This document shows, one piece after another, positions 10,346-62,688 of a stretch of 64,000 bases of DNA. The position numbers were made by a program, and so were the translations under genes. The notes under the pieces were generated by a model. It ran no database searches, was not told the origin of the DNA, and saw only the letters and a list, made by a program, of their open reading frames with translations. The stretch's first letter is position 1. Every line of letters begins with the position of its first letter. Source of the DNA: Eledone cirrhosa. Lineage: Eukaryota. The stretch lies in contig OZ024743.1 in NCBI GenBank assembly GCA_964016885.1, positions 375,720,001 through 375,784,000 of the forward strand, given 5' to 3'.

Positions 10346-10407
<62 letters not shown>

Positions 10408-10600: not shown

Positions 10601-10710
10601 CAGGAGAACATGATATGAAGGCTAAAAAACACTTGTTGATAGTGCAGATATGTTGATTTAAAACTGCACTATCAACAAGTGTTTTTTAGCCTTCATATCA
10701 TGTTCTCCTG

Positions 10711-10777
10711 TTTTATCTGATGAAAACACAAATATTATTGTTTGATGATGTTTGTTTTTGAAATGCGCATAATAAAA
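10711..10777 (+). ncRNA. Type I hammerhead ribozyme (PLE pLTR)
   Basis: TTTTAT CTGATGA AAACACAAATATTATTG..TGATGATGTTTGTTTTT GAAA TGCGCA TA ATAAAA. Confidence 0.8.
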
Positions 10778-11100
10778 TATATGGAACTCCTTTAACCATC
10801 TTTTGATCTTATATTATATATATATATATATATATATAGTATTAGTTATACTATTTATGGTTATGTAAACACAAAACCTTAAGCAGTTGTAAGTATTTTA
10901 CACACACCCACTTTAACCTATATCTTTGATTTTTGATTGTACCTATTAATATAAATGTAATCTCGAAGTGTGTACTGCCACTCTAAATTCTGTAATGAAT
11001 GTTGACCCACAATGTTTGAATATGTATCAATGTTTGAATATGTGTTGGTATGTCTCTCGGCTGAAAAGGAGGTCATATAACTGTCCATGCATCAATAAAT

Positions 11101-34236: not shown

Positions 34237-37200
34237 TAAACGGAAAAAATGAGACGATATTTCATTTCCCACTCTTAGTACGGCTGTTACTTAAATATAA
34301 GTATGTACACGTACATAAATATATGTATACCGACGTACAGTAGTATGTATATATATATATATATATACATACATGCACACATATATATATGCACGTATGG
34401 ATTCACCGAACATTTATTATAATGCTCTGTGTGTTTGTAAACAAACATGCCGTATTAAGCCGTAGTGTCTAGCGACCACCGTTGCTCGTTTGTTCAACAC
34501 TGACAAAGGAACGCTGTACTAGTTTCAAGCTTGTTAGGTTATCGTCAGCAACGTATACCTTCCTGCCAGATTGTTGAACGTATATACTTACCTTATGCAT
34601 ATTAACGGCTGAGTAGCCCAATTTGCATATCGAGTGGGTTAATCGGCCGGGTGCAACGAAAACGATAAACGGAAAAAATGAAACGATATTTCATTTCCCA
34701 CTCTTGGTACGGCTGTTACTTAAATATAAGTACGTACACGTACATACATATATGTATACCGACGTACAGTAGTATGTATATATATATATATATATATACA
34801 TACATGCACACATATATATATGCACGTATGGATTCACCGAACATTTATTATAATGCTCGGTGTGTTTGTAAACAAACATCCCGTATTAAGCCGTAGTGTC
34901 TAGCAACCACAGTTGCTTGTTTGTTCAACACTGACAAAGGAACGCTGTACTAGTTTCAAGCTTGTTAGCTATCGTCAGCAACGTATACCTTCCTGCCAGA
35001 TTATTGAACGTATATACTTACCTCATGCATAGTAACGGCTGAGTAGCCCAATTTGCATATCGAGTGGGTTAATCGGCCGGGTGCACCGAAAACGATAAAC
35101 GGCAAAAAATGAAACGATATTTCATTTCCCACTCTTAGTACGGCTGTTACTTAAATATAAGTATGTACACGTACATACATATATGTATACCGACGTACAG
35201 TAGTATGTATATGTATATATATATATATATATACATGCACACATATATATATGCACGTATGGATTCACCGAACATTTATTATAATGCTCGGTATGTTTGT
35301 AAACAAACATCCCGTATTAAGCCGTAGTGTCTAGCAACCACCGTTGCTCGTTTGTTCAACACTGACAAAGGAACGCTGTACTAGTTTCAAGCTTGTTAGC
35401 TATCGTCAGCAACGTATACCGACGTACAGTAGTATGTATATATATATATATATATATATACATACATGCACACATATATATATGCACGTATGGATTCACC
35501 GAACATTTATTATAATGCTCGGTGTGTTTATAAACAAACATGCCGTATTAAGCCGTAGTGTCTAGCAACCACCGTTGCTCGTTTGTTCAACACTGACAAA
35601 AGAACGCTGTACTAGTTTCAAGCTTGCTAGCTATCGTCAGCAACGTATACCTTCCTGCCAGATTGTTGAACGTATATACTTACCTTATGCATATTAACGG
35701 CTGAGTAGCCCAATTTGCATATCGAGTGGGTTAATCGGCCGGGTGCACCGAAAACGATAAACGGAAGAAATGAAACGATATTTCATTTACCACTCTTAGT
35801 ACGGCTGTTACTTAAATATAAGTATGTACACGTACATACATATATGTATACCGACGTACAGTAGTATGTATATATATATATATATATATATACATACATG
35901 CACACATATATATGCACGTATGGATTCACCGAACATTTATTATAATGCTCGGTGTGTTTGTAAACAAACATCCCGTATTAAGCCGTAGTGTCTAGCAACC
36001 ACCGTTGCTCGTTTGTTCAACACTGACAAAGGAACGCTGTACTAGTTTCAAGCTTGTTAGCTATCGTCAGCAAAGTATACCTTCCTGCCAGATTGTTGAA
36101 CGTATATACTTACGTTATGCATATTAACGGCTGAGTAGCCCAATTTGCATATCGAGTGGGTTAATCGGCCGGGTGCACCGAAAACGATAAACGGAAAAAA
36201 TGAAACGATATTTCATTTCCCAATCTTAGTACGGCTGTTACTTAAATATAAGTATGTACACGTACATACATATATGTATACCGACGTACAGTAGTATGTA
36301 TATATATATATATATACATACATGCACACATATATATATGCACGTATGGATTCACCGAACAATTATTATAATGCTCGGTGTGTTTGTAAACAAACATCCC
36401 GTATTAAGCCGTAGTGTCTAGCAACCACCGTTGCTCGTTTGTTCAACACTGACAAAGGAACGCTGTACTAGTTTCAAGCTTGTTAGCTATCGTCAGCAAC
36501 GTATACCTTCCTGCCAGATTGTTGAACGTATATACTTACGTTATGCATATTAACGGCTGAGTAGCCCAATTTGCATATCGAGTGGGTTAGTCGGCCGGGT
36601 GCACCGAAAACGATAGACGGAATAAATGAAACGATATTTCATTTACCACTCTTAGTACGGCTGTTACTTAAATATAAGTATGTACACGTACATACATATA
36701 TGTATACCGACGTACAGTAGTATGTATATATATATATATATATATATATACATACTTGCACACATATATATATGCACGTATGGATTCACCGAACATTTAT
36801 TATAATGCTCGGTGTGTTTGTAAACAAACATCCCGTATTAAGCCGTAGTGTCTAGCAACCACCGTTGCTCGTTTGTTCAACACTGACAAAGGAACGCTGT
36901 ACTAGTTTCAAGCTTGTTAGCTATCGTCAGCAAAGTATACCTTCCTGCCAGATTGTTGAACGTATATACTTACCATATGCATATTAACGGCTGAGTAGCC
37001 CAAATTGCATATCGAGTGGGTTAATCGGCCGGGTGCACCGAAAACGATAAACGGAAAAAATGAAACGATATTTCATTTCCCACTCTTAGTACGGCTGTTA
37101 CTTAAATATAAGTATGTACACGTACATACATATATGTATACCGACGTACAGTAGTATGTATATATATATATATATATATATACATACATGCACACATATA

Positions 37201-38013
37201 TATATGCACGTATGGATTCACCGAACATTTATTATAATGCTCGGTGTGTTTGTAAACAAACATGCCGTATTAAGCCGTAGTGTCTAGCAACCACCGTTGC
37301 TCGTTTGTTCAACACTGACAAAGGAACGCTGTACTAGTTTCAAGCTTGTTAGCTATCGTCAGCAACGTATACCTTCCTGCCAGATTGTTGAACGTATATA
37401 CTTACCTTATGCATATTAACGGCTGAGTAGCCCAATTTGCATCTCGAGTGGGTTAATTGGCCGGGTGCACCGAAAACGATAAACGGAAAAAATGAAACGA
37501 TATTTCATTTCCCACTCTTAGTACGGCTATTACTTAAATATAAGTATGTACACGTACATACATATATGTATACCGACGTACAGTAGTATGTATATATATA
37601 TATATATACATATATGCACACATATATATATGCACGTATGGATTCACCGAACATTTATTATAATGCTCGGTGTGTTTGTAAACAAACATCCCGTATTAAG
37701 CCGTAGTGTCTAGCAACCACCGTTGCTTGTCTGTTCAACACTGACAAAGGAACGCTGTACTAGTTTCAAGCTTGTTAGCTATCGTCAGCAACGTATACCT
37801 TCCTGCCAGATTGTTGAACGTATATACTTACGTTATGCATATTAACGGCTGAGTAGCCCAATTTGCATATCGAGTGGGTTAATCGGACGGGTGTACCGAA
37901 TACGATAAACGAAAAAAAATGAATCGATATTTCATTTCCCACTCTTAGTACGGCTGTTACTTAAATATAAGTATGTACACGTACATACATATATGTATAC
38001 CGACGTACAGTAG

Positions 38014-38049
<36 letters not shown>

Positions 38050-41000: not shown

Positions 41001-44000
41001 GCTGTACTAGTTTCAAGCTTGTTAGCTATCGTCAGCAACGTATACCTTCCTGCCAGATTGTTGAACGTATATACTTACCTTATGCATATTAACGGCTGAG
41101 TAGCCCAATTTGCATATCTAGTGGGTTAATCGGCCGGGTGCACCGAAAGCGATAAACGAAAAAAAATGAAACGATATTTCATTTCCCACTCTTAGTACGG
41201 CTGTTACTTAAATATAAGTATGTACACGTACATACATATATGTATACTGACGTACAGTAGTATGTATATACATATATATATATATACATACATGCACACA
41301 TATATATATGCACGTATGGATTCACCGAACATTTATTATAATGCTCGGTGTGTTTGTAAACAAACATCCCGTATTAAGCCGTAGTGTCTAGCAACCACCG
41401 TTGCTCGTTTGTTCAACACTGACAAAAGAACGCTGTACTAGTTTCAAGCTTGCTAGCTATCGTCAGCAACGTATACCTTCCTGCCAGATTGTTGAACGTA
41501 TATACTTACCTTATGCATATTAACGGCTGAGTAGCCCAATTTGCATATCAAGTGGGTTAATCGGCCGGGTGCACCGAAAACGATAAACGGAATAAATGAA
41601 ACGATATTTCATTTACCACTCTTAGTACGGCTGTTACTTAAATATAAGTATGTACACGTACATACATATATGTATACCGACGTACAGTAGTATGTATATA
41701 TATATATATATATATACATACTTGCACACATATATATATGCACGTATGGATTCACCGAACATTTATTATAATGCTCGGTGTGTTTGTAAACAAACATCCC
41801 GTATTAAGCCGTAGTGTCTAGCAACCACCGTTGCTCGTTTGTTCAACACTGACAAAGGAACGCTGTACTAGTTTCAAGCTTGTTAGCTATCGTCAGCAAA
41901 GTATACCTTCCTGCCAGATTGTTGAACGTATATACTTACCATATGCATATTAACGGCTGAGTAGCCCAAATTGCATATCGAGTGGGTTAATCGGCCGGGT
42001 GCACCGAAAACGATAAACGGAAAAAATGAAACGATATTTCATTTCCCACTCTTAGTACGGCTGTTACTTAAATATAAGTATGTACACGTACATACATATA
42101 TGTATACCGACGTACAGTAGTATGTATAAATATATATATATATATACATACATGCACACATATATATATGCACGTATGGATTCACCGAACATTTATTATT
42201 ATGCTCGGTGTGTTTGTAAACAAACATGCCGTATTAAGCCGTAGTGTCTAGCAACCACCGTTGCTCGTTTGTTCAACACTGAAAAAGGAACGCTCTACTA
42301 GTTTCAAGCTTGTTAGCTATCGTCAGCAACGTATACCTTCCTGCCAGATTGTTGAACGTATATACTTACCTTATGCATATTAACGGCTGAGTAGCCCAAT
42401 TTGCATATCGAGTGGGTTAATCGGCCGGGTGCACCGAAAACGATAAACGGAAAAAATGAAACGATATTTCATTTCCCACTCTTAGTACGGCTGTTACTTA
42501 AATATAAGTATGTACACGTACATACATATATGTATACCGACGTACAGTAGTATGTATATATATATATATATATATACACATACATGCACACATATATATA
42601 TGCACGTATGGATTCACCGAACATTTATTATAATGCTCGGTGTGTTTGTAAACAAACATGACGTATTAAGCCGTAGTGTCTAGCAACCACCGTTGCTCGT
42701 TTGTTCAACACTGACAAAGGAACGCTGTACTAGTTTCAAGCTTGTTAGCTATCGTCAGCAACGTATACCTTCCTGCCAGATTGTTGAACGTATATACTTA
42801 CCTTATGCATATTAACGGCTGAGTAGCCCAATTTGCATCTCGAGTGGGTTAATTGGCCGGGTGCACCGAAAACGATAAACGGAAAAAATGAAACGATATT
42901 TCATTTCCCACTCTTAGTACGGCTATTACTTAAATATAAGTATGTACACGTACATACATATATGTATACCGACGTACAGTAGTATGTATATATATATATA
43001 TATACATATATGCACACATATATATATGCACGTATGGATTCACCGAACATTTATTATAATGCTCGGTGTGTTTGTAAACAAACATCCCGTATTAAGCCGT
43101 AGTGTCTAGCGATCACCGTGGCTCGTTTGTTCAACACTGACAAAGGAACGCTGTACTAGTTTCAAGCTTGTTAGCTATCGTCAGCAACGTATACCTTCCT
43201 GCCAGATTGTTGAACGTATATACTTACCTTATGCATATTAACGGCTGAGTAGCCCAATTTGCATATCGAGTGGGTTAATCGGACGGGTGTACCGAATACG
43301 ATAAACGAAAAAAAATGAATCGATATTTCATTTCCCACTCTTAGTACGGCTGTTACTTAAATATAAGTATGTACACGTACATACATATATGTATACCGAC
43401 GTACAGTAGTATGTATATATATATATATATATATATATACATACATGCACACATATATATATGCACGTATGGATTCACCGAACATTTATTATAATGCTCG
43501 GTGTGTTTGTAAACAAACATCCCGTATTAAGCCGTAGTGTCTAGCAACCACCGTTGCTCGTTTGTTCAACACTGACAAAGGAACGCTGTACTAGTTTCAA
43601 GCTTGCTAGCTATCGTCAGCAACGTATACCTTCCTGCCAGATTGTTGAACGTATATACTTACGTTATGCATATTAACGGCTGAGTAGCCCAATTTGCATA
43701 TCGAGTGGGTTAATCGGCCGGGTGCACCGAAAACGATAAACGGAATAAATGAGACGATATTTCATTTCCCACTCTTAGTACGGCTGTGACTTAAATATAA
43801 GTATGTACACGTACATAAATATATGTATACCGACGTACAGTAGTATGTATATATATATATATATATACATACATGCACACATATATATATGCACGTATGG
43901 ATTCACCGAACATTTATTATAATGCTCGGTGTGTTTGTAAACAAACATGCCGTATTAAGCCGTAGTGTCTAGCGATCACCGTGGCTCGTTTGTTCAACAC

Positions 44001-47000
44001 TGACAAAGGAACGCTGTACTAGTTTCAAGCTTGTTAGGTTATCGTCAGCAACGTATACCTTCCTGCCAGATTGTTGAACGTATATACTTACCTTATGCAT
44101 ATTAACGGCTGAGTAGCCCAATTTGCATATCGAGTGGGTTAATCGGCCGGGTGCACCGAAAACGATAAACGGAAAAAATGAGACGATATTTCATTTCCCA
44201 CTCTTAGTACGGCTGTTACTTAAATATAAGTATGTACACGTACATAAATATATGTATACCGACGTGCAGTAGTATGTATATATATATATATACATACATG
44301 CACACATATATATATGCACGTATGGATTCACCGAACATTTATTATAATGCTCGGTGTGTTTGTAAACAAACATGCCGTATTAAGCCGTAGTGTCTAGCGA
44401 CCACCGTTGCTCGTTTGTTCAACACTGACAAAGGAACGCTGTACTAGTTTCAAGCTTGTTAGGTTATCGTCAGCAACGTATACCTTCCTGCCAGATTGTT
44501 GAACGTATATACTTACCTTATGCATATTAACGGCTGAGTAGCCCAATTTGCATATCGAGTGGGTTAATCGGCCGGGTGCAACGAAAACGATGAACGGAAA
44601 AAATGAAACGATATTTCATTTCCCACTCTTGGTACGGCTGTTACTTAAATATAAGTACGTACACGTACATACATATATGTATACCGACGTACAGTAGTAT
44701 GTATATATATATATATATATATACATACATGCACACATATATATATGCACGTATGGATTCACCGAACATTTATTATAATGCTCGGTGTGTTTGTAAACAA
44801 ACATCCCGTATTAAGCCGTAGTGTCTAGCAACCACCGTTGCTCGTTTGTTCAACACTGACAAAGGAACGCTGTACTAGTTTCAAGCTTGTTAGCTATCGT
44901 CAGCAACGTATACCTTCCTGCCAGATTATTGAACGTATATACTTACCTCATGCATAGTAACGGCTGAGTAGCCCAATTTGCATATCGAGTGGGTTAATCG
45001 GCCGGGTGCACAGAAAACGATAAACGGCAAAAAATGAAACGATATTTCATTTCCCACTCTTAGTACGGCTGTTACTTAAATATAAGTATGTACACGTACA
45101 TACATATATGTATACCGACGTACAGTAGTATGTATATATATATATATATATATACATACATGCACACATATATATATGCACGTATGGATTCACCAAACAT
45201 TTATTATAATGCTCGGTGTGTTTGTAAACAAACATGCCGTATTAAGCCGTAGTGTCTAGCAACCACCGTTGTTCGTTTGTTCAACACTGACAAAGGAACG
45301 CTGTACTAGTTTCAAGCTTGTTAGCTATCGTCAGCAACGTATACCTTCCTGCCAGATTGTTGAACGTATATACTTGCCTTATGCATGTTAACGGCTGAGT
45401 AGCCCAATTTGCATATCGAGTGGGTTAATCGGCCGGGTGCACCGAAAACGATAAACGGAAAAAATAAAACGATATTTCATTTCCCACTCTTAGTACGGCT
45501 GTTACTTAAATATAAGTATGTACACGTACATACATATATGTATACCGACGTACAGTAGTATGTATATGTATATATATATATATATATACATGCACACATA
45601 TATATATGCACGTATGGATTCACCGAACATTTATTATAATGCTGGGTATGTTTGTAAACAAACATCCCGTATTAAGCCGTAGTGTCTAGCAACCACCGTT
45701 GCTCGTTTGTTCAACACTGACAAAGGAACGCTGTACTAGTTTCAAGCTTGTTAGCTATCGTCAGCAACGTATACCTTCCTGCCAGATTGTTGAACGTATA
45801 TACTTACCTTATGCATATTAACGGCTGAGTAGCCCAAATTGCATATCGAGTGGGTTAATCGACCGGGTGCACCGAAAACGATAAACGGAAAAAATGAAAC
45901 GATATTTCATTTCCCACTCTTAGTACGGCTGTTACTTAAATATAAGTATGTACACGTACATACATATATGTATACCGACGTACAGTAGTATGTATATATA
46001 TATACATACATGCACACATATATATATGCACGTATGGATTCACCGAACATTTATTATAATGCTCGGTGTGTTTGTAAACAAACATGCCGTATTAAGCCGT
46101 AGTGTCTAGCAACCACCGTTGCTCGTTTGTTCAACACTGACAAAAGAACGCTGTACTAGTTTCAAGCTTGCTAGCTATCGTCAGCAACGTATACCTTCCT
46201 GCCAGATTGTTGAACGTATATACTTACCTTATGCATATTAAAGGCTGAGTAGCCCAATTTGCATATCGAGTGGGTTAATCGGCCGGGTGCACCGAAAACG
46301 ATAAACGGAAGAAATGAAACGATATTTCATTTACCACTCTTAGTACGGCTGTTACTTAAATATAAGTATGTACACGTACATACATATATGTATACCGACG
46401 TACAGTAGTATGTATATATATATATATATATATATACATACATGCACACATATATATGCACGTATGGATTCACCGAACATTTATTATAATGCTCGGTGTG
46501 TTTGTAAACAAACATCCCGTATTAAGCCGTAGTGTCTAGCAACCACCGTTGCTCGTTTGTTCAACACTGACAAAGGAACGCTGTACTAGTTTCAAGCTTG
46601 TTAGCTATCGTCAGCAAAGTATACCTTCCTGCCAGATTGTTGAACGTATATACTTACGTTATGCATATTAACGGCTGAGTAGCCCAATTTGCATATCGAG
46701 TGAGTTAATCGGCCGGGTGCACCGAAAACGATAAACGGAAAAAATGAAACGATATTTCATTTCCCACTCTTAGTACGGCTGTTACTTAAATATAAGTATG
46801 TACACGTACATACATATATGTATACCGACGTACAGTAGTATGTATATATATATATATATATACATACATGCACACATATATATATGCACGTATGGATTCA
46901 CCGAACAATTATTATAATGCTCGGTGTGTTTGTAAACAAACATCCCGTATTAAGCCGTAGTGTCTAGCAACCACCGTTGCTCGTTTGTTCAACACTGACA

Positions 47001-50000
47001 AAGGAACGCTGTACTAGTTTCAAGCTTGTTAGCTATCGTCAGCAACGTATACCTTCCTGCCAGATTGTTGAACGTATATACTTACCTTATGCATATTAAC
47101 GGCTGAGTTGCCCAATTTGCATATCTAGTGGGTTAATCGGCCGGGTGCACCGAAAGCGATAAACGAAAAAAAATGAAACGATATTTCATTTCCCACTCTT
47201 AGTACGGCTGTTACTTAAATATAAGTATGTACACGTACATACATATATGTATACTGACGTACAGTAGTATGTATATACATATATATATATATACATACAT
47301 GCACACATATATATATGCACGTATGGATTCACCGAACATTTATTATAATGCTCGGTGTGTTTGTAAACAAACATCCCGTATTAAGCCGTAGTGTCTAGCA
47401 ACCACCGTTGCTCGTTTGTTCAACACTGACAAAAGAACGCTGTACTAGTTTCAAGCTTGCTAGCTATCGTCAGCAACGTATACCTTCCTGCCAGATTGTT
47501 GAACGTATATACTTACCTTATGCATATTAACGGCTGAGTAGCCCAATTTGCATATGGAGTGGGTTAATCGGCCGGGTGCACCGAAAACGATAAACGGAAT
47601 AAATGAAACGATATTTCATTTACCACTCTTAGTACGGCTGTTACTTAAATATAAGTATGTACACGTACATACATATATGTATACCGACGTACAGTAGTAT
47701 GTATATATATATATATATATATACATACTTGCACACATATATATATGCACGTATGGATTCACCGAACATTTATTATAATGCTCGGTGTGTTTGTAAACAA
47801 ACATCCCGTATTAAGCCGTAGTGTCTAGCAACCACCGTTGCTCGTTTGTTCAACACTGACAAAGGAACGCTGTACTAGTTTCAAGCTTGTTAGCTATCGT
47901 CAGCAAAGTATACCTTCCTGCCAGATTGTTGAACGTATATACTTACCATATGCATATTAACGGCTGAGTAGCCCAAATTGCATATCGAGTGGGTTAATCG
48001 GCCGGGTGCACCGAAAACGATAAACGGAAAAAATGAAACGATATTTCATTTCCCACTCTTAGTACGGCTGTTACTTAAATATAAGTATGTACACGTACAT
48101 ACATATATGTATACCGACGTACAGTAGTATGTATAAATATATATATATATATACATACATGCACACATATATATATGCACGTATGGATTCACCGAACATT
48201 TATTATTATGCTCGGTGTGTTTGTAAACAAACATGCCGTATTAAGCCGTAGTGTCTAGCAACCACCGTTGCTCGTTTGTTCAACACTGAAAAAGGAACGC
48301 TCTACTAGTTTAAAGCTTGTTAGCTATCGTCAGCAACGTATACCTTCCTGCCAGATTGTTGAACGTATATACTTACCTTATGCATATTAACGGCTGAGTA
48401 GCCCAATTTGCATATCGAGTGGGTTAATCGGCCGGGTGCACCGAAAACGATAAACGGAAAAAATGAAACGATATTTCATTTCCCACTCTTAGTACGGCTG
48501 TTACTTAAATATAAGTATGTACACGTACATACATATATGTATACCGACGTACAGTAGTATGTATATATATATATATATATATACATACATGCACACATAT
48601 ATATATGCACGTATGGATTCACCGAACATTTATTATAATGCTCGGTGTGTTTGTAAACAAACATGCCGTATTAAGCCGTAGTGTCTAGTAACCACCGTTG
48701 CTCGTTTGTTCAACACTGACAAAGGAACGCTGTACTAGTTTCAAGCTTGTTAGCTATCGTCAGCAACGTATACCTTCCTGCCAGATTGTTGAACGTATAT
48801 ACTTACCTTATGCATATTAACGGCTGAGTAGCCCAATTTGCATCTCGAGTGGGTTAATTGGCCGGGTGCACCGAAAACGATAAACGGAAAAAATGAAACG
48901 ATATTTCATTTCCCACTCTTAGTACGGCTATTACTTAAATATAAGTATGTACACGTACATACATATATGTATACCGACGTACAGTAGTATGTATATATAT
49001 ATATATATACATATATGCACACATATATATATGCACGTATGGATTCACCGAACATTTATTATAATGCTCGGTGTGTTTGTAAACAAACATCCCGTATTAA
49101 GCCGTAGTGTCTAGCAACCACCGTTGCTTGTCTGTTCAACACTGACAAAGGAACGCTGTACTAGTTTCAAGCTTGTTAGCTATCGTCAGCAACGTATACC
49201 TTCCTGCCAGATTGTTGAACGTATATACTTACCATATGCATATTAACGGCTGAGTAGCCCAAATTGCATATCGAGTGGGTTAATCGGCCGGGTGCACCGA
49301 AAACGATAAACGGAAAAAATGAAACGATATTTCATTTCCCACTCTTAGTACGGCTGTTACTTAAATATAAGTATGTACACGTACATACATATATGTATAC
49401 CGACGCACAGTAGTATGTATAAATATATATATATATATACATACATGCACACATATATATATGCACGTATGGATTCACCGAACATTTATTATTATGCTCG
49501 GTGTGTTTGTAAACAAACATGCCGTATTAAGCCGTAGTGTCTAGCAACCACCGTTGCTCGTTTGTTCAACACTGAAAAAGGAACGCTCTACTAGTTTCAA
49601 GCTTGTTAGCTATCGTCAGCAACGTATACCTTCCTGCCAGATTGTTGAACGTATATACTTACCTTATGCCTATTAACGGCTGAGTAGCCCAATTTGCATA
49701 TCGAGTGGGTTAATCGGACGGGTGTACCGAATACGATAAACGAAAAAAAATGAATCGATATTTCATTTCCCACTCTTAGTACGGCTGTTACTTAAATATA
49801 AGTATGTACACGTACATACATATATGTATACCGACGTACAGTAGTATGTATATATATATATATATATATATATACATACATGCACACATATATATATGCA
49901 CGTATGGATTCACCGAACATTTATTATAATGCTCGGTGTGTTTGTAAACAAACATCCCGTATTAAGCCGTAGTGTCTAGCAACCACCGTTGCTCGTTTGT

Positions 50001-53000
50001 TCAACACTGACAAAGGAACGCTGTACTAGTTTCAAGCTTGCTAGCTATCGTCAGCAACGTATACCTTCCTGCCAGATTGTTGAACGTATATACTTACCTT
50101 ATGCATATTAACGGCTGAGTAGCCCAATTTGCATATCGGGTGGGTTAATCGGCCGGGTGCACCGAAAACGATAAAACGGAATAAATGAAACGATATTTCA
50201 TTTCCCACTCTTAGTACGGCTGTTACTTAAATATAAGTATGTACACGTACATACATATATGTATACCGACGTACAGTAGTATGTATATATATATATATAT
50301 ATATACATACATGCACACATATATATATGCACGTATGGATTCACCGAACATTTATTATAATGCTCGGTGTGTTTGTAAACAAACATCCCGTATTAAGCCG
50401 TAGTGTCTAGCAACCACCGTTGCTCGTTTGTTCAACACTGACAAAGGAACGCTGTACTAGTTTCAAGCTTGTTAGCTATCGTCAGCAACGTATACCTTCC
50501 TGCCAGATTGTTGAACGTATATACTTACCTTATGCATATTAACGGCTGAGTAGCCCAATTTGCATATCGAGTGGGCTAATCTGCCGGGTGTACCGAAAAC
50601 GATAAACGAATAAAAATGAATCGATATTTCATTTCCCACTCTTAGTACGGCTGTTACTTAAATATAAGTATGTACACGTACATACATATATGTATACCGA
50701 CGTACAGTAGTATGTATATATATATATATATATATACATACATGCACACATATATATATGCACGTATGGATTCACCGAACATTTATTATAATGCTCGGTG
50801 TGTTTGTAAACAAACATCCCGTATTAAGCCGTAGTGTCTAGCAACCACCGTTGCTCGTTTGTTCAACACTGACAAAGGAACGCTGTACTAGTTTCAAGCT
50901 TGCTAGCTATCGTCAGCAACGTATAACTTCCTGCCAGATTGTTGAACGTATAAACTTACCTTATGCATATTAACGGCTGAGTAGCCCAATTTGCATATCG
51001 AGTGGGTTAATCGGCCGGGTGCACCGAAAACGATAAACGGAAAAAATGAAACGATATTTCATTTCCCACTCTTAGTACGGCTGTTACTTAAATATAAGTA
51101 TGTACACGTACATACATATATGTATACCGACGTACAGTAGTATGTATATATATATATATATATATACATACATGCACACATATATATATGCACGTATGGA
51201 TTCACCGAACATTTATTATAATGCTCGGTGTGTTTGTAAACAAACATCCCGTATTAAGCCGTAGTGTCTAGCAACCACCGTTGCTCGTTTGTTCAACACT
51301 GACAAAAGAACGCTGTACTAGTTTCAAGCTTGCTAGCTATCGTCAGCAACGTATACCTTCCTGCCAGATTGTTGAACGTATATACTTACCTTATGCATAT
51401 TAACGGCTGAGTAGCCCAATTTGCATATGGAGTGGGTTAATCGGCCGGGTGCACCGAAAACGATAAACGGAATAAATGAAACGATATTTCATTTACCACT
51501 CTTAGTACGGCTGTTACTTAAATATAAGTATGTACACGTACATACATATATGTATACCGACGTACAGTAGTATGTATATATATATATATATATATATACA
51601 TACTTGCACACATATATATATGCACGTATGGATTCACCGAACATTTATTATAATGCTCGGTGTGTTTGTAAACAAACATCCCGTATTAAGCCGTAGTGTC
51701 TAGCAACCACCGTTGCTCGTTTGTTCAACACTGACAAAGGAACGCTGTACTAGTTTCAAGCTTGTTAGCTATCGTCAGCAAAGTATACCTTCCTGCCAGA
51801 TTGTTGAACGTATATACTTACCATATGCATATTAACGGCTGAGTAGCCCAAATTGCATATCGAGTGGGTTAATCGGCCGGGTGCACCGAAAACGATAAAC
51901 GGAAAAAATGAAACGATATTTCATTTCCCACTCTTAGTACGGCTGTTACTTAAATATAAGTATGTACACGTACATACATATATGTATACCGACGTACAGT
52001 AGTATGTATAAATATATATATATATATACATACATGCACACATACATATATGCACGTATGGATTCACCAAAAATTTATTATTATGCTCGGTGTGTTTGTA
52101 AACAAACATGCCGTATTAAGCCGTAGTGTCTAGCAACCACCGTTGCTCGTTTGTTCAACACTGAAAAAGGAACGCTCTACTAGTTTAAAGCTTGTTAGCT
52201 ATCGTCAGCAACGTATACCTTCCTGCCAGATTGTTGAACGTATATACTTACCTTATGCATATTAACGGCTGAGTAGCCCAATTTGCATATCGAGTGGGTT
52301 AATCGGCCGGGTGCACCGAAAACGATAAACGGAAAAAATGAAACGATATTTCATTTCCCACTCTTAGTACGGCTGTTACTTAAATATAAGTATGTACACG
52401 TACATACATATATGTATACCGACGTACAGTAGTATGTATATATATATATATATATATACATACATGCACACATATATATATGCACGTATGGATTCACCGA
52501 ACATTTATTATAATGCTCGGTGTGTTTGTAAACAAACATGCCGTATTAAGCCGTAGTGTCTAGTAACCACCGTTGCTCGTTTGTTCAACACTGACAAAGG
52601 AACGCTGTACTAGTTTCAAGCTTGTTAGCTATCGTCAGCAACGTATACCTTCCTGCCAGATTGTTGAACGTATATACTTACCTTATGCATATTAACGGCT
52701 GAGTAGCCCAATTTGCATCTCGAGTGGGTTAATTGGCCGGGTGCACCGAAAACGATAAACGGAAAAAATGAAACGATATTTCATTTCCCACTCTTAGTAC
52801 GGCTATTACTTAAATATAAGTATGTACACGTACATACATATATGTATACCGACGTACAGTAGTATGTATATATATATATATATACATATATGCACACATA
52901 TATATATGCACGTATGGATTCACCGAACATTTATTATAATGCTCGGTGTGTTTGTAAACAAACATCCCGTATTAAGCCGTAGTGTCTAGCAACCACCGTT

Positions 53001-55877
53001 GCTTGTCTGTTCAACACTGACAAAGGAACGCTGTACTAGTTTCAAGCTTGTTAGCTATCGTCAGCAACGTATACCTTCCTGCCAGATTGTTGAACGTATA
53101 TACTTACCATATGCATATTAACGGCTGAGTAGCCCAAATTGCATATCGAGTGGGTTAATCGGCCGGGTGCACCGAAAACGATAAACGGAAAAAATGAAAC
53201 GATATTTCATTTCCCACTCTTAGTACGGCTGTTACTTAAATATAAGTATGTACACGTACATACATATATGTATACCGACGTACAGTAGTATGTATAAATA
53301 TATATATATATATACATACATGCACACATATATATATGCACGTATGGATTCACCGAACATTTATTATTATGCTCGGTGTGTTTGTAAACAAACATGCCGT
53401 ATTAAGCCGTAGTGTCTAGCAACCACCGTTGCTCGTTTGTTCAACACTGAAAAAGGAACGCTCTACTAGTTTCAAGCTTGTTAGCTATCGTCAGCAACGT
53501 ATACCTTCCTGCCAGATTGTTGAACGTATATACTTACCTTATGCCTATTAACGGCTGAGTAGCCCAATTTGCATATCGAGTGGGTTAATCGGACGGGTGT
53601 ACCGAATACGATAAACGAAAAAAAATGAATCGATATTTCATTTCCCACTCTTAGTACGGCTGTTACTTAAATATAAGTATGTACACGTACATACATATAT
53701 GTATACCGACGTACAGTAGTATGTATATATATATATATATATATATATACATACATGCACACATATATATATGCACGTATGGATTCACCGAACATTTATT
53801 ATAATGCTCGGTGTGTTTGTAAACAAACATCCCGTATTAAGCCGTAGTGTCTAGCAACCACCGTTGCTCGTTTGTTCAACACTGACAAAGGAACGCTGTA
53901 CTAGTTTCAAGCTTGCTAGCTATCGTCAGCAACGTATACCTTCCTGCCAGATTGTTGAACGTATATACTTACCTTATGCATATTAACGGCTGAGTAGCCC
54001 AATTTGCATATCGGGTGGGTTAATCGGCCGGGTGCACCGAAAACGATAAAACGGAATAAATGAAACGATATTTCATTTCCCACTCTTAGTACGGCTGTTA
54101 CTTAAATATAAGTATGTACACGTACATACATATATGTATACCGACGTACAGTAGTATGTATATATATATATATATATATACATACATGCACACATATATA
54201 TATGCACGTATGGATTCACCGAACATTTATTATAATGCTCGGTGTGTTTGTAAACAAACATCCCGTATTAAGCCGTAGTGTCTAGCAACCACCGTTGCTC
54301 GTTTGTTCAACACTGACAAAGGAACGCTGTACTAGTTTCAAGCTTGTTAGCTATCGTCAGCAACGTATACCTTCCTGCCAGATTGTTGAACGTATATACT
54401 TACCTTATGCATATTAACGGCTGAGTAGCCCAATTTGCATATCGAGTGGGCTAATCTGCCGGGTGTACCGAAAACGATAAACGAATAAAAATGAATCGAT
54501 ATTTCATTTCCCACTCTTAGTACGGCTGTTACTTAAATATAAGTATGTACACGTACATACATATATGTATACCGACGTACAGTAGTATGTATATATATAT
54601 ATATATATATACATACATGCACACATATATATATGCACGTATGGATTCACCGAACATTTATTATAATGCTCGGTGTGTTTGTAAACAAACATCCCGTATT
54701 AAGCCGTAGTGTCTAGCAACCACCGTTGCTCGTTTGTTCAACACTGACAAAGGAACGCTGTACTAGTTTCAAGCTTGCTAGCTATCGTCAGCAACGTATA
54801 ACTTCCTGCCAGATTGTTGAACGTATAAACTTACCTTATGCATATTAACGGCTGAGTAGCCCAATTTGCATATCGGGTGGGTTAATCGGCCGGGTGCACC
54901 GAAAACGATAAAACGGAATAAATGAAACGATATTTCATTTCCCACTCTTAGTACGGCTGTTACTTAAATATAAGTATGTACACGTACATACATATATGTA
55001 TACCGACGTACAGTAGTATGTATATATATATATATATATATACATACATGCACACATATATATATGCACGTATGGATTCACCGAACATTTATTATAATGC
55101 TCGGTGTGTTTGTAAACAAACATCCCGTATTAAGCCGTAGTGTCTAGCAACCACCGTTGCTCGTTTGTTCAACACTGACAAAGGAACGCTGTACTAGTTT
55201 CAAGCTTGTTAGCTATCGTCAGCAACGTATACCTTCCTGCCAGATTGTTGAACGTATATACTTACCTTATGCATATTAACGGATGAGTAGCCCAATTTGC
55301 ATATCGAGTGGGCTAATCTGCCGGGTGTACCGAAAACGATAAACGAATAAAAATGAATCGATATTTCATTTCCCACTCTTAGTACGGCTGTTACTTAAAT
55401 ATAAGTATGTACACGTACATACATATATGTATACCGACGTACAGTAGTATGTATATATATATATATATATATACATACATGCACACATATATATATGCAC
55501 GTATGGATTCACCGAACATTTATTATAATGCTCGGTGTGTTTGTAAACAAACATCCCGTATTAAGCCGTAGTGTCTAGCAACCACCGTTGCTCGTTTGTT
55601 CAACACTGACAAAGGAACGCTGTACTAGTTTCAAGCTTGCTAGCTATCGTCAGCAACGTATAACTTCCTGCCAGATTGTTGAACGTATAAACTTACCTTA
55701 TGCATATTAACGGCTGAGTAGCCCAATTTGCATATCGAGTGGGTTAATCGGCCGGGTGCACCGAAAACGATAAACGGAAAAAATGAAACGATATTTCATT
55801 TCCCACTCTTAGTACGGCTGTTACTTAAATATAAGTATGTACACGTACATACATATATGTATACCGACGTACAGTAG

Positions 55878-55969
<92 letters not shown>

Positions 55970-57225
55970 CATGCCCGCATATATATATGCACGTATGGAT
56001 TCACCGAACATTTATTATAATGCTCGGTGTGTTTGTAAACAAACATCCCGTATTAAGCCGTAGTGTCTAGCAACCACCGTTGCTCGTTTGTTCAACACTG
56101 ACAAAGGAACGCTGTACTAGTTTCAAGCTTGTTAGCTATCGTCAGCAACGTATACCTTCCTGCCAGATTGTTGAACGTATATACGTACCTTATGCATATT
56201 AACGGCTGAGTAGCCCAATTTGCATATCGAGTGGGTTAATCGGCCGGGTGCACCGAAAACGATAAACGAACAAAAATGAAACGATATTTCATTTCCCACT
56301 CTTAGTACGGCTGTTACTTAAATATAAGTATGTACACGTACATACATATATGTATACCGACGTACAGTAGTATGTATATATATATATATATATACATACA
56401 TGCACACATATATATATGCACGTATGGATTCACCGAACATTTATTATAATGCTCAGTGTGTTTGTAAACAAACATCCCATATTAAGCCGTAGTGTCTAGC
56501 AACCACCGTTGCTCATTTGTTCAACACTGACAAACGAACGCTGTACTAGTTTCAAGCTTGTTAGCTATCGTCAGCAACGTATACCTTCCTGCCACATTGT
56601 TGAACGTATATACTTACCTTATGCATATTAACGGCTGAGTAGCCCAATTTGCATATCGAATGGGTTAATCGGCCGGGTGCACCGAAAGGGATAAATGGAA
56701 AAAATGAAACGATATTTCATTTCCCACTCTTAGTACGGCTGTTACTTAAATATATGTATGTACACGTACATACATATATGTATACCGACGTACAGTAGTA
56801 TGTATATATATATGTATATATACATACATACACACATATATATATGCACGTATGGATTCACCGAACATTTATTATAATGCTCGGTGTGTTTGTAAACAAA
56901 CATCCCGTATTAAGCCGTAGTGTCTAGCAACCACCGTTGCTCGTTTGTTCAACACTGACAAAGGAACGCTGTACTAGTTTCAAGCTTGTTAGCTATCGTC
57001 AGCAACGTATACCTTCCTGCCAGATTGTTGAACGTATATACTTACCTTATGCATATTAACGGCTGAGTAGCCCAATTTGCATGTCGAGTGGGTTAATCGG
57101 CCGGGTGCACCGAAAACGATAAACGGAAAAAATGAAACGATATTTCATTTCCCACTCTTAGTACGGCTGTTACTTAAATATATGTATGTACACGTACATA
57201 CATATATGTATACCGACGTACAGTA

Positions 57226-57294
<69 letters not shown>

Positions 57295-59424
57295 CATGCC
57301 CGCATATATATATGCACGTATGGATTCACCGAACATTTATTATAATGCTCGGTGTGTTTGTAAACAAACATCCCGTATTAAGCCGTAGTGTCTAGCAACC
57401 ACCGTTGCTCGTTTGTTCAACACTGACAAAGGAACGCTCTACTAGTTTCAAGCTTGTTAGCTATCGTCAGCAACGTATACCTTCCTGCCAGATTGTTGAA
57501 CGTATATACTTACCTTATGCATATTAACGGCTGAGTAGCCCAATTTGCATATCGAGTGGGTTAATCGGCCGGGTGCACCGAAAACGATAAACGAACAAAA
57601 ATGAAACGATATTTCATTTCCCACTCTTAGTACGGCTGTTACTTAAATATAAGTATGTACACGTACATACATATATGTATACCGACGTACAGTAGTATGT
57701 ATATATATATATATATATATATACATACATGCACACATATATATATGCACGTATGGATTCACCGAACATTTATTATAATGCTCAGTGTGTTTGTAAACAA
57801 ACATCCCATATTAAGCCGTAGTGTCTAGCAACCACCGTTGCTCATTTGTTCAACACTGACAAACGAACGCTGTACTAGTTTCAAGCTTGTTAGCTATCGT
57901 CAGCAACGTATACCTTCCTGCCAGATTGTTGAACGTATATACTTACCTTATGCATATTAACAGCTGAGTAGCCCAATTTGCATATCGAGTGGGTTAATCG
58001 GCCGGGTGCGCCGAAAGGGATAAATGGAAAAAAAGAAACGATATTTCATTTCCCACTCTTAGTACGGCTGTTACTTAAATATAAGTATGTACACGTACAT
58101 ACATATATGTATACCGACGTACAGTAGTATGTATATATATATATATATACATACATGCACACATATATATATGCACGTATGGATTCACCGAACATTTATT
58201 ATAATGCTCGGTGTGTTTGTAAACAAACATCCCGTATTAAGCCGTAGTGTCTAGCAACCACCGTTGCTCGTTTGTTCAACACTGACAAAGGAACGCTGTA
58301 CTAGTTTCAAGCTTGTTAGCTATCGTCAGCAACGTATACCTTCCTGCCAGATTGTTGAACATATATACTTACCTTATGCATATTAACGGCTGAGTAGCCC
58401 AATTTGCATATCGAGTGGGTTAATCGGCCGGGTTAATCGGCCGGGTGCACCGAAAGCGATAAACGGAAAAAATGAACCGATATTTCATTTCCCACTCTTA
58501 GTACGGCTGTTACTTAAATATAAGTATGTACACGTACATACATATATGTATACCGACGTACAGTAGTATGTATATATATATATATACATACATGCACACA
58601 TATATATATGCACGTATGGATTCACCGAACATTTATTATAATGCTCGGTGTGTTTGTAAACAAACATCCCGTATTAAGCCGTAGTGTCTAGCAACCACCG
58701 TTGCTCGTTTGTTCAACACTGACAAAGGAACGCTGTACTAGTTTCAAGCTTGTTAGCTATCGTCAGCAACGTATACCTTCCTGCCAGATTGTTGAACGTA
58801 TATACTTACCTTATGCATATTAACAGCTGAGTAGCCCAATTTGCATATCGAGTGGGTTAATCGGCCGGGTGCACCGAAAACGATAAACGGAAAAAATGAA
58901 ACGATATTTCATTTCCCACTCTTAGTACGGCTGTTACTTAAATATAAGTATGTACACGTACATACATATATGTATACCGATGTACAGTAGTATGTATATA
59001 TATATATATATATATATACATACATGCACACATATATATATATGCACGTATGGATTCACAGAACATTTATTATAATGCTCGGTGTGTTTGTAAACAAACA
59101 TCCCGTATTAAGCCGTAGTGTCTAGCAACCACCGTTGCTCGTTTGTTCAACACTGACAAAGGAACGCTGTACTAGTTTCAAGCTTGTTAGCTATCGTCAG
59201 CAACGTATACCTTCCTGCCAGATTGTTGAACGTATATACTTACCTTATGCATATTAACGGCTGAGTAGCCCAATTTGCATATCGAGTGGGTTAATCGGCC
59301 GGGTGCACCGAAAACGATAAACGGAAAAAAGGAAACGATATTTCATTTCCCACTCTTAGTACGGCTGTTACTTAAATATAAGTATGTACACGTACATACA
59401 TATATGTATACCGACGTACCGTAG

Positions 59425-59462
<38 letters not shown>
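34237..59462 (-). repeat. Tandem array of about 59 monomers of ~430 bp, each with a type I hammerhead ribozyme (retrozyme-like satellite)
   Basis: ~430-bp period throughout (for example ORF ends 41367, 41797, 42227), highly similar copies, internal variable (TA)n, and a hammerhead fold in each unit. Copy number is estimated from length, not counted. Confidence 0.95.
36441..36527 (-). ncRNA. Representative monomer hammerhead ribozyme (type I); predicted cleavage between 36466 and 36465
   Basis: Minus strand: GUUCAACA AU CUGGCA GG AAGG UAU ACGUUG - CUGACGA - U AGCU AACA AGCU U - GAAA - CUAG - UA / CAGCGU U CCUU UGUCAG UGUUGAAC. Four consecutive helices in stem I, including G-U pairs. Confidence 0.85.
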
Positions 59463-59466
<4 letters not shown>

Positions 59467-60360
59467 GGAGGTGAGTTTTATTGTAGTACAATAAAGCAAT
59501 GCAGATATCGGATAAGAAGCACTCTACAGTTTGTGGGACTGGAGTATGCATAATATAAGATCAAAAGATGGTTAAAGGAGTTCCATATATTTTATTATGC
59601 GCATTTCAATAACAAACATCATCAAGCAATAATATTTCTGTTTTCATCAGATAAAACAGGAGAACATGATATGAAGGCTAAAAAACACTTGTTGTTAGTG
59701 CAGTTTTAAATCAACATATGAAAAGTGGTTTTAGATTGATGTGTGATATTGGGAAAAATATTTTATTTAGAGAGGGGGGGAAGGATGAAAAGGGAAGGAG
59801 AAGAAAGGGAGAGATGGGTGATAGAGAGAAAGAGATAGTTTTTATAACTGAGAGGAGATATAATTTTTACATAGAGGGGTTGAAAACCGTTGGAAGATAC
59901 TGTATAAACTAAAAATTTTGAAAATTAACGAAGGGAGGATATGTGCGAGGAAAAAATATTTTATTTAGGGAGGAGGATGAAAAAAAGGGGGGAGGAGATG
60001 AGAGTGAAGGTGGAGAGGGAGAGATGGGTGATAGAGAGAAAGAGATAGTTTTTATAACTGAGAAAAAGATATATTGTTTTAATATAGAGAGGTTGGGAAC
60101 CGTTGGAAGATAATGTATAAATTAAAGGAATTTGAAAATTAACGAAGGGAAATTATGTATGAAGATAGAGAGAAAAAAATAATAATTGTGGGTGAATATT
60201 CTAACGTCAAAAGAAGAAATGTATGTATTGTGGCAATTTCAAAATTAGCGAAGAGAAAAATTGTTACGGTTTGTGTGTAGAAGGATTTGAGAAAAATAAT
60301 GTGAAGTTAAAGTTTGTATATTGAATTGATATGTATTAATAATGAGTTCGTTGATAAAAT
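59463..60360 (-). mobile_element. Inverted copy of the Penelope 3' UTR + pseudo-LTR
   Basis: 59463-59765 is the reverse complement of ~60367-60665; ~59780-60352 is the reverse complement of ~63415-64000. Confidence 0.9.
59590..59656 (-). ncRNA. Type I hammerhead in the inverted pLTR
   Basis: Reverse complement of the 60472-60538 motif with about 2 substitutions in stem II. Confidence 0.78.
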
Positions 60361-60471
60361 AAATAAAATATTTTTCCCAATATCACACATCAATCTAAAA
60401 CCACTTTTCATATGTTGATTTAAAACTTCACTATCAACAAGTGTTTTTAACCTTCATATCATGTTCTCCTG

Positions 60472-60538
60472 TTTTATCTGATGAAAACACAAATATTATT
60501 GCTTGATGATGTTTGTTTTTGAAATGCGCATAATAAAA
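60472..60538 (+). ncRNA. Type I hammerhead ribozyme in the Penelope pLTR; predicted cleavage after 60532
   Basis: UUUUAU/AUAAAA stem I, CUGAUGA, ~16-bp stem II with G-U pairs, GAAA, palindromic AUGCGCAU stem III, AUA triplet. Confidence 0.82.
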
Positions 60539-60684
60539 TAAATGGAACTCCTTTAACCATCTTTTGATCTTATATTATGCATACTCCAGTCCCACAAACT
60601 GTAGAGTGCTTCTTATCCGATATCTGCATTGCTTTATTGTACTACAATAAAACTCACCTCCTACATTAACTTGCTCCTTAACGG

Positions 60685-62688
60685 TTGAGCGTTTACTCTC
60701 ATATTGGATACCTTTTGATGGTCCTTCACCTCTTCTTCTACAACATGGATTATTACAACATAACCAATTCAACTAAAGACATTCCTATACCTGGTAAATC
60801 CGAATTCACCAAACTTCTTATTGAAAAAACTGACTCCTTCGTAAGAAGACTTAGATGGACAGCCTATTTCTATGACCAGCGCCTAAAAGGGAACTTTCAT
60901 ACCAAAGAACACAACTTCCTCGATCATCTTTTTAATTCTAGACGAAATCCTCCTTCCAACAAAAATCTAGCACAATTCGAGGAAGAATTAACTAAAATAA
61001 TAAAAAATCTTAAATTCAAGAGATACCCTTACAAAGGACAAGAGCACCTTGTAAATCTCAAGAACACAATCTCTAACCTAAATTCCTCAAAAAATGTTTT
61101 AGTCCACTCTGACAAAACCAATAACCTATATGGTATTTCCAAGGATAATTATAACAACCTTATCCTAAAGGAACTTAGGAAAAAGTATCGTAAAACCAAC
61201 CATGAAAATTTAGAATGCATAAACCTTGAAGCCTATGAGATTATGTCAAAACTTGGCATTGAAAAAAAGACCGAACCATTCCTCCCAAGAACTCCGAGGA
61301 TAAATCTCAAGGATCACAAAAACAATTTTCGCACTGAACTACCTGTTAGATTAATCGCCCCCTCTAAATCTGATCTGGGGGTTGTTAGTAAAGCCATCTT
61401 GGATAGGATTATCCCACAGGTGAGTTCTAATTGCTCTTCTTTAAACCTAAATTTATGGTTTGGTACTTCTGAAGTGATTGGCTGGTTCAACAAATTGGAT
61501 AATAAAAACAAACTAAAATTTATTCAATTCGATATTGCCAGCTACTATTCCTCCATTTCGCCTTCACTTCTCAATAATGCTCTATCTTTCGCACTTAAAT
61601 ATTCTGACATCACCACAGATGAACTTCACATCATCCTCACCGCACGTAAAACCATCCTAGAGTTCAACAACGAATATTGGACCAGAGCCGATACCTCTAA
61701 CAACTTCGACATCACAATGGGAGCATCCGATTCATCCCAATTGACCGATTTAATTGGTATCTTCATTTTGAACTCTTTGAGTCGGAAAATTCCTCAACTT
61801 CGCGGTGGAATTTATCGTGACGATGGACTCTTTACTATCCTAAATTGCAATATAGTTAAACTTAATATTATTAAGAACAATATACGTAATCTCTTTAACC
61901 AACATAACCTAAAAATTGAATTTGATAATAGTATCAAACTAGCTAATTTCTTGGATGTATCTCTTAATCTTGACACTGGCCTATATTACCCTTACCATAA
62001 AAACAATGAGAATCTTAATTATGTTAACTTTAAATCTAACCATCCTACCAATATCAAGAATGCTATAGTTAATAATATTGGAAATAGAATATCTAACATA
62101 TCTTCTAATAAAAACATCTTTGATGCTAACGCCAATTACTATAATAACGCACTTTCTAAAGCCGGCTATCCAGATAAAATCAAATATAATAAAGAAACAA
62201 ATTCTAGGAAAACTTACAGTAGAATAATTAATCATGACCATTCCAATAATTTTAATAAAAGACCTAGATACAAAAACATAATCTGGTATAATGCTCCTTT
62301 CTCCATCTCTATTAATAACAATATTCCTAAATTATTTTTTAGTGCCTTAAATAAATGCTTCCCTCCCTCACATATCTATAGTAAAATATTTAACAAACAC
62401 ACCATCAAATTTTCGTATTCTACATCCTCCAATATTTCCAACATCATCTCTAAACACAACAACAAAATATTAAATACTAAATCTCTTCCTTCCAATATTG
62501 AATTTCATAATAACAGTAATAGTACTCCCGACGTCATTGTAAACCCTAGGCTAATTTCTGTAAACCCAAATACAACGTCAAACACAACTTCGCTAAATGT
62601 TCATAATCCAACTCTAAATCAAGAAACTATTATTCCTTATTATTCCTATCGCAAACAACTTCTCCAATCCAATTCCTTCTATAGATAA
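60685..62688 (+). CDS. Penelope-like reverse transcriptase (YRDD type); true start probably the ATG at 60718 or 60745
   Basis: 667-aa ORF with SDKT, KDHK, VRLIAP, FIQFDIASYYSSI, FDITMG, GIYRDDGL, NFLDVSLNL, SNHP, IIWYNAPFS. Confidence 0.9.
   Translation: MSVYSHIGYLLMVLHLFFYNMDYYNITNSTKDIPIPGKSEFTKLLIEKTDSFVRRLRWTAYFYDQRLKGNFHTKEHNFLDHLFNSRRNPPSNKNLAQFEEELTKIIKNLKFKRYPYKGQEHLVNLKNTISNLNSSKNVLVHSDKTNNLYGISKDNYNNLILKELRKKYRKTNHENLECINLEAYEIMSKLGIEKKTEPFLPRTPRINLKDHKNNFRTELPVRLIAPSKSDLGVVSKAILDRIIPQVSSNCSSLNLNLWFGTSEVIGWFNKLDNKNKLKFIQFDIASYYSSISPSLLNNALSFALKYSDITTDELHIILTARKTILEFNNEYWTRADTSNNFDITMGASDSSQLTDLIGIFILNSLSRKIPQLRGGIYRDDGLFTILNCNIVKLNIIKNNIRNLFNQHNLKIEFDNSIKLANFLDVSLNLDTGLYYPYHKNNENLNYVNFKSNHPTNIKNAIVNNIGNRISNISSNKNIFDANANYYNNALSKAGYPDKIKYNKETNSRKTYSRIINHDHSNNFNKRPRYKNIIWYNAPFSISINNNIPKLFFSALNKCFPPSHIYSKIFNKHTIKFSYSTSSNISNIISKHNNKILNTKSLPSNIEFHNNSNSTPDVIVNPRLISVNPNTTSNTTSLNVHNPTLNQETIIPYYSYRKQLLQSNSFYR

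What the first reader, a model, noticed from the sequence alone, without database searches (positions are those of the whole stretch)
34237..59462. 25-kb satellite made of about 59 hammerhead-ribozyme monomers: a candidate cephalopod retrozyme / circular-RNA locus
Seen: each ~430-bp unit folds on the minus strand into a type I hammerhead. It has the CUGACGA and GAAA core, a GUA cleavage triplet, stem II AGCU/AGCU, and a stem I of four stacked helices (ACGUUG/CAGCGU, AAGG/CCUU, CUGGCA/UGUCAG, GUUCAACA/UGUUGAAC) with an internal loop. The mismatches are G-U on the minus strand, which points to that strand as the RNA. There is no coding capacity. Established: tandem type I hammerhead monomers of a few hundred nt are non-LTR retrozymes (newt satellite 2, schistosome Sm-alpha, and mussel, coral and axolotl circRNAs). 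Inference: read-through transcripts would be cut into ~430-nt monomers that can circularise. An array this long and homogeneous at one locus would normally be masked as plain satellite. I cannot confirm whether this family has been described.
Basis: partly seen in the sequence, partly recalled or inferred. Interest (0 to 1): 0.93.

Follow-up and report, generated by a model that had tools for sequence, protein, structure and literature searches.

The report
Hammerhead-ribozyme repeat riding Penelope retrotransposons
A long run of 430-base repeats, each with a self-cutting RNA motif, is one enlarged copy of a very common mobile element in a cephalopod genome, and its scattered copies carry the footprints of being pasted in by Penelope-type retrotransposons.

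Summary
In detail: 59 hammerhead cores (57 intact) lie on the minus strand in ~430-bp units. The fold covaries across related families in this genome. It is a weakened type I hammerhead: a U·U pair opens stem II and stem III is a palindrome that probably needs two units. Rfam does not detect it.

The array is not a unique locus. The family has at least 19,000 cores genome-wide, and other arrays are as long or longer. This one runs 9 kb past the window and holds two copies of a Hydra-type Penelope-like element (PLE).

Dispersed copies end at two fixed internal points 59 nt apart, joined to (TA)n. They are often head-to-head, with one arm at each point (34 of 43 pairs, none same-point). That is the PLE tail signature. 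Young multi-unit insertions have near-identical units, which fits repeated copying of one monomer.

Verdict: a non-LTR retrozyme, very likely a non-autonomous PLE passenger, and a new member of a known kind. Self-cleavage, expression and circles are not shown.

The parts
34236..59463 (-). Tandem retrozyme array: 59 hammerhead-bearing units of 420-492 bp, two of them truncated to 231 bp; continues beyond the window to about position 73029 in window numbering
33887..34235 (.). (TA)n target tract; the array's 3' end (unit position 279, at 34236) joins it
   Evidence: same junction 3,373 times genome-wide
36040..36465 (-). Example monomer (426 nt) between two predicted cleavage sites; unit position 1 = 36465
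36441..36527 (-). Example type I hammerhead with long four-helix stem I
   Evidence: covariation
36466..36496 (-). Catalytic core, stem II (U·U at 36489/36476) and palindromic stem III (36467-36472); predicted cut between 36466 and 36465
   Evidence: cleavage inferred, not shown
36187..36245 (-). 59-nt PLE-type tail between the two fixed 3' ends (unit positions 220 = 36246 and 279 = 36187); contains a hairpin just upstream of the long end
36252..36347 (-). Long (TA)-rich hairpin of variable length; source of most unit-length variation and target of the PLE insertion
36143..36150 (-). Octamer-type motif ATGCAAAT (name recalled), kept in sister subfamilies and a more distant family; possible promoter element
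   Evidence: 50 of 59 units; function is inference
35379..35609 (-). 231-bp truncated unit, repeated at 39914-40144; marks a 4.5-kb local duplication
59464..64000 (+). Hydra-type Penelope-like element inserted in a unit's (TA)n: inverted 5' repeat, own different hammerhead (about 60470-60540), RT/endonuclease reading frame in two pieces (60682-62688, 62618-63148); ends near 64241 and is duplicated at about 65970-70752

Best explanation
The unit is a non-LTR retrozyme that behaves as a non-autonomous Penelope-like element. Shown from DNA: a conserved hammerhead in each unit; thousands of dispersed insertions in (TA)n; two fixed internal 3' ends; head-to-head arms that use one end each. Inferred: multi-unit transcripts are cut by paired (dimeric) hammerheads into ~430-nt monomers that can circularise. 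A PLE protein, probably Hydra clade, nicks both strands of a (TA)n tract. Each nicked strand primes reverse transcription at one of the two internal sites, and the enzyme copies across the cleavage junction for several rounds. This window's locus is one such insertion (279-end on the left, inversion and 220-end about 9 kb beyond the window), later enlarged to ~68 units by local duplication and hit by an unrelated PLE. My odds: retrozyme class 0.9, PLE mobilisation 0.9, circle or repeated monomer as template about 0.6.
For: Hammerhead covariation over 10 sequences from related families: 11 of 16 pairs change on both sides, 94% of cells paired, 0 of 500 shuffles reach it, slid controls 30-50%. 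The inner palindrome pair, possible only between two units, stays complementary in 10 of 10. In public contigs the only listed catalytic-core variants are at N7 and H17. 73 of 81 arms in 43 loci end at position 220 or 279 and 72 of those join TA; head-to-head pairs are 220+279 in 23 of 29 and 11 of 14, same-point in none. Sister subfamilies use the homologous ends and the neighbouring PLE shows the same two-end, TA pattern. PLE tail, inverted copy and (TA)n target are described in PMC8557442; two internal RT starts with both strands cut and extended in PMC11167929. L084: 6 of 7 full units identical; its marker occurs 18 times genome-wide, 8 in this locus and 10 singly elsewhere, none with the same haplotype. 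Short insertions: 111 singleton against 16 shared variants; window array 32 against 87.
Against: No RNA evidence was obtained. Rfam finds no hammerhead. The ribozyme joins two weakening features, and its MFE is an inactive form. 8 of 9 predicted Xenopus retrozyme dimers did not cleave in vitro, and cleavage was not needed for insertion by an anole PLE. 5' ends are not clearly enriched at the cleavage site: about 63 separate loci against about 52 in the TA-matched control, which fits a circle and an uncut precursor equally. No autonomous partner was found, and the neighbouring PLE shares no sequence with the unit (best E 0.83). One 279+279 pair occurs (L048). The A2 sequences are related and hand-picked, so the shuffle count is not a probability. 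The singleton test is confounded by unit number and my grouping was made after seeing the loci. A source for L084 could lie on the unassembled haplotype.
Confidence: 0.8

Rival explanations
1. Non-autonomous PLE copied from uncut, linear multi-unit transcripts; the hammerhead cuts rarely or at another stage, and circles are absent or a by-product.
For: Cleavage-dead mutants insert normally with the anole PLE. No spike of 5' ends at the cut site. Weak ribozyme design. Most Xenopus dimers were inactive.
Against: The core and pairings are kept across diverged families. L084's haplotype fills all its units on both arms and no homogeneous source was found.
Confidence: 0.3
2. This array is itself an active source or a selected circular-RNA gene.
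For: 57 of 59 cores intact. Fewer variant sites in the ribozyme than in the rest of the unit, 13 of 87 against 71 of 228, p=0.004. Octamer-type motif in 50 units.
Against: The deficit vanishes at non-CpG G/C sites (10 of 31 against 22 of 63). Core and stem mutations have been amplified in the array. None of 529 dispersed pieces carried a window unit's full variant set. Two PLE copies interrupt the array.
Confidence: 0.15
3. Plain satellite DNA whose hammerhead look is chance.
For: No Rfam match; the array grew by ordinary local duplication.
Against: Covariation, variants confined to tolerant core positions, and fixed retrotransposition ends at thousands of sites.
Confidence: 0.02

Closest known systems
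Non-LTR retrozymes of coral, mussel and axolotl (Cervera and de la Pena 2020, PMC7229834; sections 14, 15, 17 and passages read; supplement not readable)
   Same: Type I hammerhead in short, low-GC, non-coding tandem units, from dimers to long multimers; PLEs in the same genome.
   Different: Unit slightly longer (420-540 against about 170-400 nt). Cephalopods are not mentioned in the main text. Insertion ends were not analysed in what I read ('target site' 0 occurrences). Their RNAs were shown; ours are not.
Axolotl HHR_Amex1 and HHR_Amex2 (PMC7229834 section 15)
   Same: Amex1 has a one-pair stem III with palindromic tetraloop; Amex2 has U·U at the base of stem II; both cleave poorly as monomers (6% and 22%) and better as dimers.
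   Different: This ribozyme carries both features at once and has a much longer stem I.
Vertebrate retrozymes as PLE derivatives (bioRxiv 10.64898/2026.07.22.740005; parts 1-3 of 5 read, supplements closed)
   Same: Proposes PLE origin and mobilisation; arrays up to 300 units; monomers, dimers and multimers.
   Different: Its evidence is co-occurrence and similarity to PLE terminal repeats; no molluscs; no tail or inversion analysis in the text read. Here the evidence is the insertion footprint, and no partner similarity was found.
Penelope-like elements: Hydra clade (PMC8557442, passages and section 11) and anole Poseidon PAc (PMC11167929, parts 1-2 of 4)
   Same: Partial tandems, inverted 5' copy, tail between two internal RT start sites, AT-rich or (TA)n targets, hammerhead in the terminal repeat; non-autonomous tandem relatives known in Chlamydomonas.
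   Different: No reading frame; tail 59 nt rather than 30-40. PAc showed no strand difference in start site in vitro, whereas here paired arms use one site each.

Membership tests
Type I hammerhead ribozyme | Core CUGANGA, GAAA and NUH in type I order | tested here: met
   57 of 59 units
Type I hammerhead ribozyme | Stems I and II supported by pairing and covariation | tested here: met
   11 of 16 pairs with double changes; 5 of 80 within the closer family
Type I hammerhead ribozyme | Stem III, stable or palindromic for dimer formation | tested here: met
   Palindrome kept in 10 of 10, 3 by double change
Canonical type I hammerhead | Standard pair at 10.1-11.1 | tested here: not met
   U·U in the window; 8 of 10 aligned sequences unpaired; precedent HHR_Amex2, so filed as a variant
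Rfam hammerhead families | Covariance-model match | tested here: not met
   0 matches at gathering; none among 85 matches at E<=10
Type I hammerhead ribozyme | Self-cleavage at the NUH site | not testable with these tools
   Needs an in vitro assay
Non-LTR retrozyme | Hammerhead in each unit of a short tandem repeat, GC under 45%, no ORF | tested here: met
   (GC 0.36-0.38); size inside the 51-972 bp range
Non-LTR retrozyme | Dispersed monomers, dimers and multimers | tested here: met
Non-LTR retrozyme | Expressed as linear and circular monomer RNA | not testable with these tools
   No RNA holder listed; runs laid are contigs of unknown kind
Non-autonomous Penelope-like element | Two fixed internal 3' ends (tail), inverted 5' copy, microsatellite target | tested here: met
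Non-autonomous Penelope-like element | Sequence shared with an autonomous PLE's terminal repeat | tested here: inconclusive
   None with the neighbouring PLE; no genome-wide partner search was possible
Hydra-clade PLE (neighbouring element only) | DKT motif, CxCX5C linker, C-terminal endonuclease, hammerhead, (TA)n insertion | tested here: met
   Motifs against the description; RWT in place of RWK; no tree built; Pfam gave no family

The most novel reading that the evidence does not exclude
This family's thousands of insertions are a direct genomic record that an animal retrozyme is mobilised by a PLE protein copying a circular RNA round and round, with each target strand priming at its own fixed internal site. 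That would answer which enzyme moves animal retrozymes and on what template, and add a one-site-per-strand rule to the PLE mechanism. I did not find this in the papers I read (searches; supplements unseen).
Probability: 0.4. Interest if true: 0.72.

Novelty: new member of a known kind. Interest (0 to 1): 0.5.

Why it matters
Animal retrozymes are known, so the array alone is ordinary. Their mobilisation by PLEs has been proposed from co-occurrence and sequence likeness, and the circular template is a hypothesis. Here a young, very abundant family leaves clean footprints that make both points testable: two defined priming sites, paired arms, and units identical at birth. It also extends retrozymes to cephalopods, where my literature searches found no report, and shows that Rfam misses a ribozyme present at least 19,000 times in one genome.

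Tried and rejected
Rfam: no hammerhead family at either threshold. Expression: no RNA holder listed; the four runs laid were contigs of unknown kind, so they say nothing on expression. Spike of 5' ends at the cleavage site: 67 raw matches (about 63 separate loci) against 34 (21), 41 (14) and, for a control also preceded by TA, 99 (about 52); tandem clusters were collapsed by eye and counts were not normalised for subfamily variation; in aligned loci 1 of 81 and 1 of 40 arms started there. Rejected as evidence of cleavage. Simple fold-back origin of the inverted arm: rejected because the 220-arm is the longer one in about half of the pairs. Neighbouring PLE as parent of the unit: no similarity. 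C21 array as source of L084: units differ at 9-17 sites. Window array as source of dispersed copies: 23 of 529 pieces shared two variants, none a full set. Host from transposon proteins: uninformative (best named hits 38% and 49%). ESM Atlas gave no answer. Earlier scan findings: none. An snRNA-type promoter in newt satellite 2 is recalled; I saw only the search listing, so it stays a lead.
Full report
Observation. The repeat is real: period 430-431 bp from 34236 to 59456, GC 0.36-0.38, no ORF of 150 aa inside it. There are 59 hammerhead cores on the minus strand, 57 with an intact core. Rfam finds no hammerhead at either threshold.

The ribozyme. Stem II opens with U·U, and stem III is one pair closed by a palindromic tetraloop. 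Each feature has a precedent in axolotl, where monomers cleave poorly and dimers better (PMC7229834 section 15); here both occur together. I aligned 10 hammerheads picked from this family, its sisters and three more distant families in the same genome. Of 16 pairs, 11 change on both sides and 94% of cells are paired; 0 of 500 shuffles reach this and slid controls give 30-50%. The sequences are related, so this is not a probability. The inner pair of the palindrome, which cannot form inside one hairpin, stays complementary in 10 of 10, pointing to a dimeric ribozyme. In public contigs the listed catalytic-core variants fall only at N7 and H17 (4 rows of that table were not shown). Cleavage itself is inferred.

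The locus. The array continues past 59463. A Penelope-like element sits in one unit's (TA)n; then come 4 units, a second copy of the PLE, 5 units, an inversion junction and a short inverted arm ending near 73029 in window numbering. In all there are 68 cleavage sites in the main orientation. The 63 full units average 97.4% identity and recur in higher-order blocks, so the array grew by local duplication. The PLE has the DKT and CxCX5C motifs, C-terminal endonuclease, hammerhead and (TA)n target described for the Hydra clade (no tree built). It shares no sequence with the unit.

The family. One exact 39-nt core pattern matches 1,766 times and a mutually exclusive sister pattern 17,607 times, both with 0 control matches. 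Other long arrays lie on C21 (about 25 kb) and C28 (about 100 kb; ends fetched, middle seen only as matches). Arrays of 62, 180 and 300 units are in print. The host is a cephalopod: it has molluscan haemocyanin genes whose tested unit scores 647-654 bits to chains I recall as squid and octopus and 456-502 to chains I recall as gastropod.

Insertion footprint. I took the 43 clusters formed by the first 100 listed matches on C1. Of 81 arms, 73 end at unit position 220 or 279 and 72 of these join (TA)n. Of 29 head-to-head pairs, 23 combine one 220-end with one 279-end, none has the same end twice, and 6 involve another end. A second sample picked only on the 279 junction (27 of 30 loci; 3 dropped as repeats of L083) gave 11 of 14 mixed pairs and none same. 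One locus is shared between the samples and one pair is a later duplicate. A third, similarity-picked set held one 279+279 pair (L048). The 279 junction occurs 3,373 times. Sister subfamilies use the homologous points, and the neighbouring PLE has two such ends of its own. This matches the PLE tail, inverted copy and (TA)n bias (PMC8557442) and the two internal start sites with both strands cut and extended in vitro (PMC11167929). The window locus follows the rule: 279 on the left, 220 on the right.

Template. Neither end is the ribozyme site, and insertions read across it. 5' ends show no clear excess there over a TA-matched control, so the template is a circle or an uncut multimer. Units within an insertion differ by 2.6-2.8% against 4.9% between loci. 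In L084, 6 of 7 full units are identical; its marker occurs 18 times genome-wide, 8 in this locus and 10 singly elsewhere, none on the same haplotype. Short insertions carry 111 singleton and 16 shared variants, the window array 32 and 87 (confounded by unit number, groups set after inspection). This favours repeated copying of one monomer. It does not exclude a homogeneous source missing from the assembly, or template jumping between linear monomers.

Against. No RNA data. 8 of 9 Xenopus dimers failed to cleave. Cleavage was dispensable for insertion by the anole PLE. No autonomous partner was found. Nothing shows that this array is expressed or is a source.

Novelty. It meets the DNA-level features of non-LTR retrozymes and of non-autonomous PLEs. 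Searches for cephalopod or octopus with hammerhead or retrozyme listed no paper describing such a family; Repbase, Dfam and the supplements of the key papers could not be seen. PLE mobilisation is already proposed. What this adds is the footprint evidence, the paired use of two start sites, and a doubly weakened hammerhead. Verdict: new member of a known kind, interest 0.5.

Noticed in passing
L042:4456-5393: A second retrozyme-like family with a standard G-C at the base of stem II, the same palindromic stem III, the octamer-type motif, a similar hairpin before the long end, and the same head-to-head insertion in (TA)n.
   Followed up: partly
L029:88-186, L111:4913-5000, L173:2790-3028, L041:2446-2545: Two further hammerhead families with long stem I; one varies between A-U and U·U at the base of stem II.
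   Followed up: partly
loci L007-L210: Many distinct PLE-type hammerheads with long stem II and palindromic stem III occur in the flanks; the genome is rich in hammerheads.
   Followed up: no
window 10406-10817: Short head-to-head insertion of the neighbouring PLE family's terminal repeat, using its two different ends in (TA)n.
   Followed up: partly
window 16900-16975 (-) and 17949-19459 (-): Minimal PLE-type hammerhead downstream of a decayed PLE reading frame with a weak RT match.
   Followed up: no
G000:C28:109.957-110.065 Mb and beyond; C21:33.956-33.981 Mb; C1:53.35 Mb; C4:352.28 Mb; C2:82.72 Mb: Other long arrays of the same family; the C21 array has the same 279-end, inversion and 220-end layout.
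   Followed up: partly
window 14002-16146, 23370-24323, 29514-32102: Fragments of other transposons: two LINE-like reverse transcriptases and a Helitron-like Rep/helicase (class names from recall, RT domain relatives).
   Followed up: no
window 19606-20521: Complex CAG/CAA-rich minisatellite with 42-108 bp periods.
   Followed up: no
G000:C1:173.74-173.91 Mb and C26:21.93-22.02 Mb: Five haemocyanin-like gene copies with seven full domains each, two of them as an inverted pair; seven is the count I recall for octopods.
   Followed up: partly
alignment A1 columns 20-26 with 288-294, and 31-36 with 105-111: Helices outside the ribozyme also show double changes between subfamilies, suggesting selection on the whole unit's RNA fold.
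   Followed up: partly
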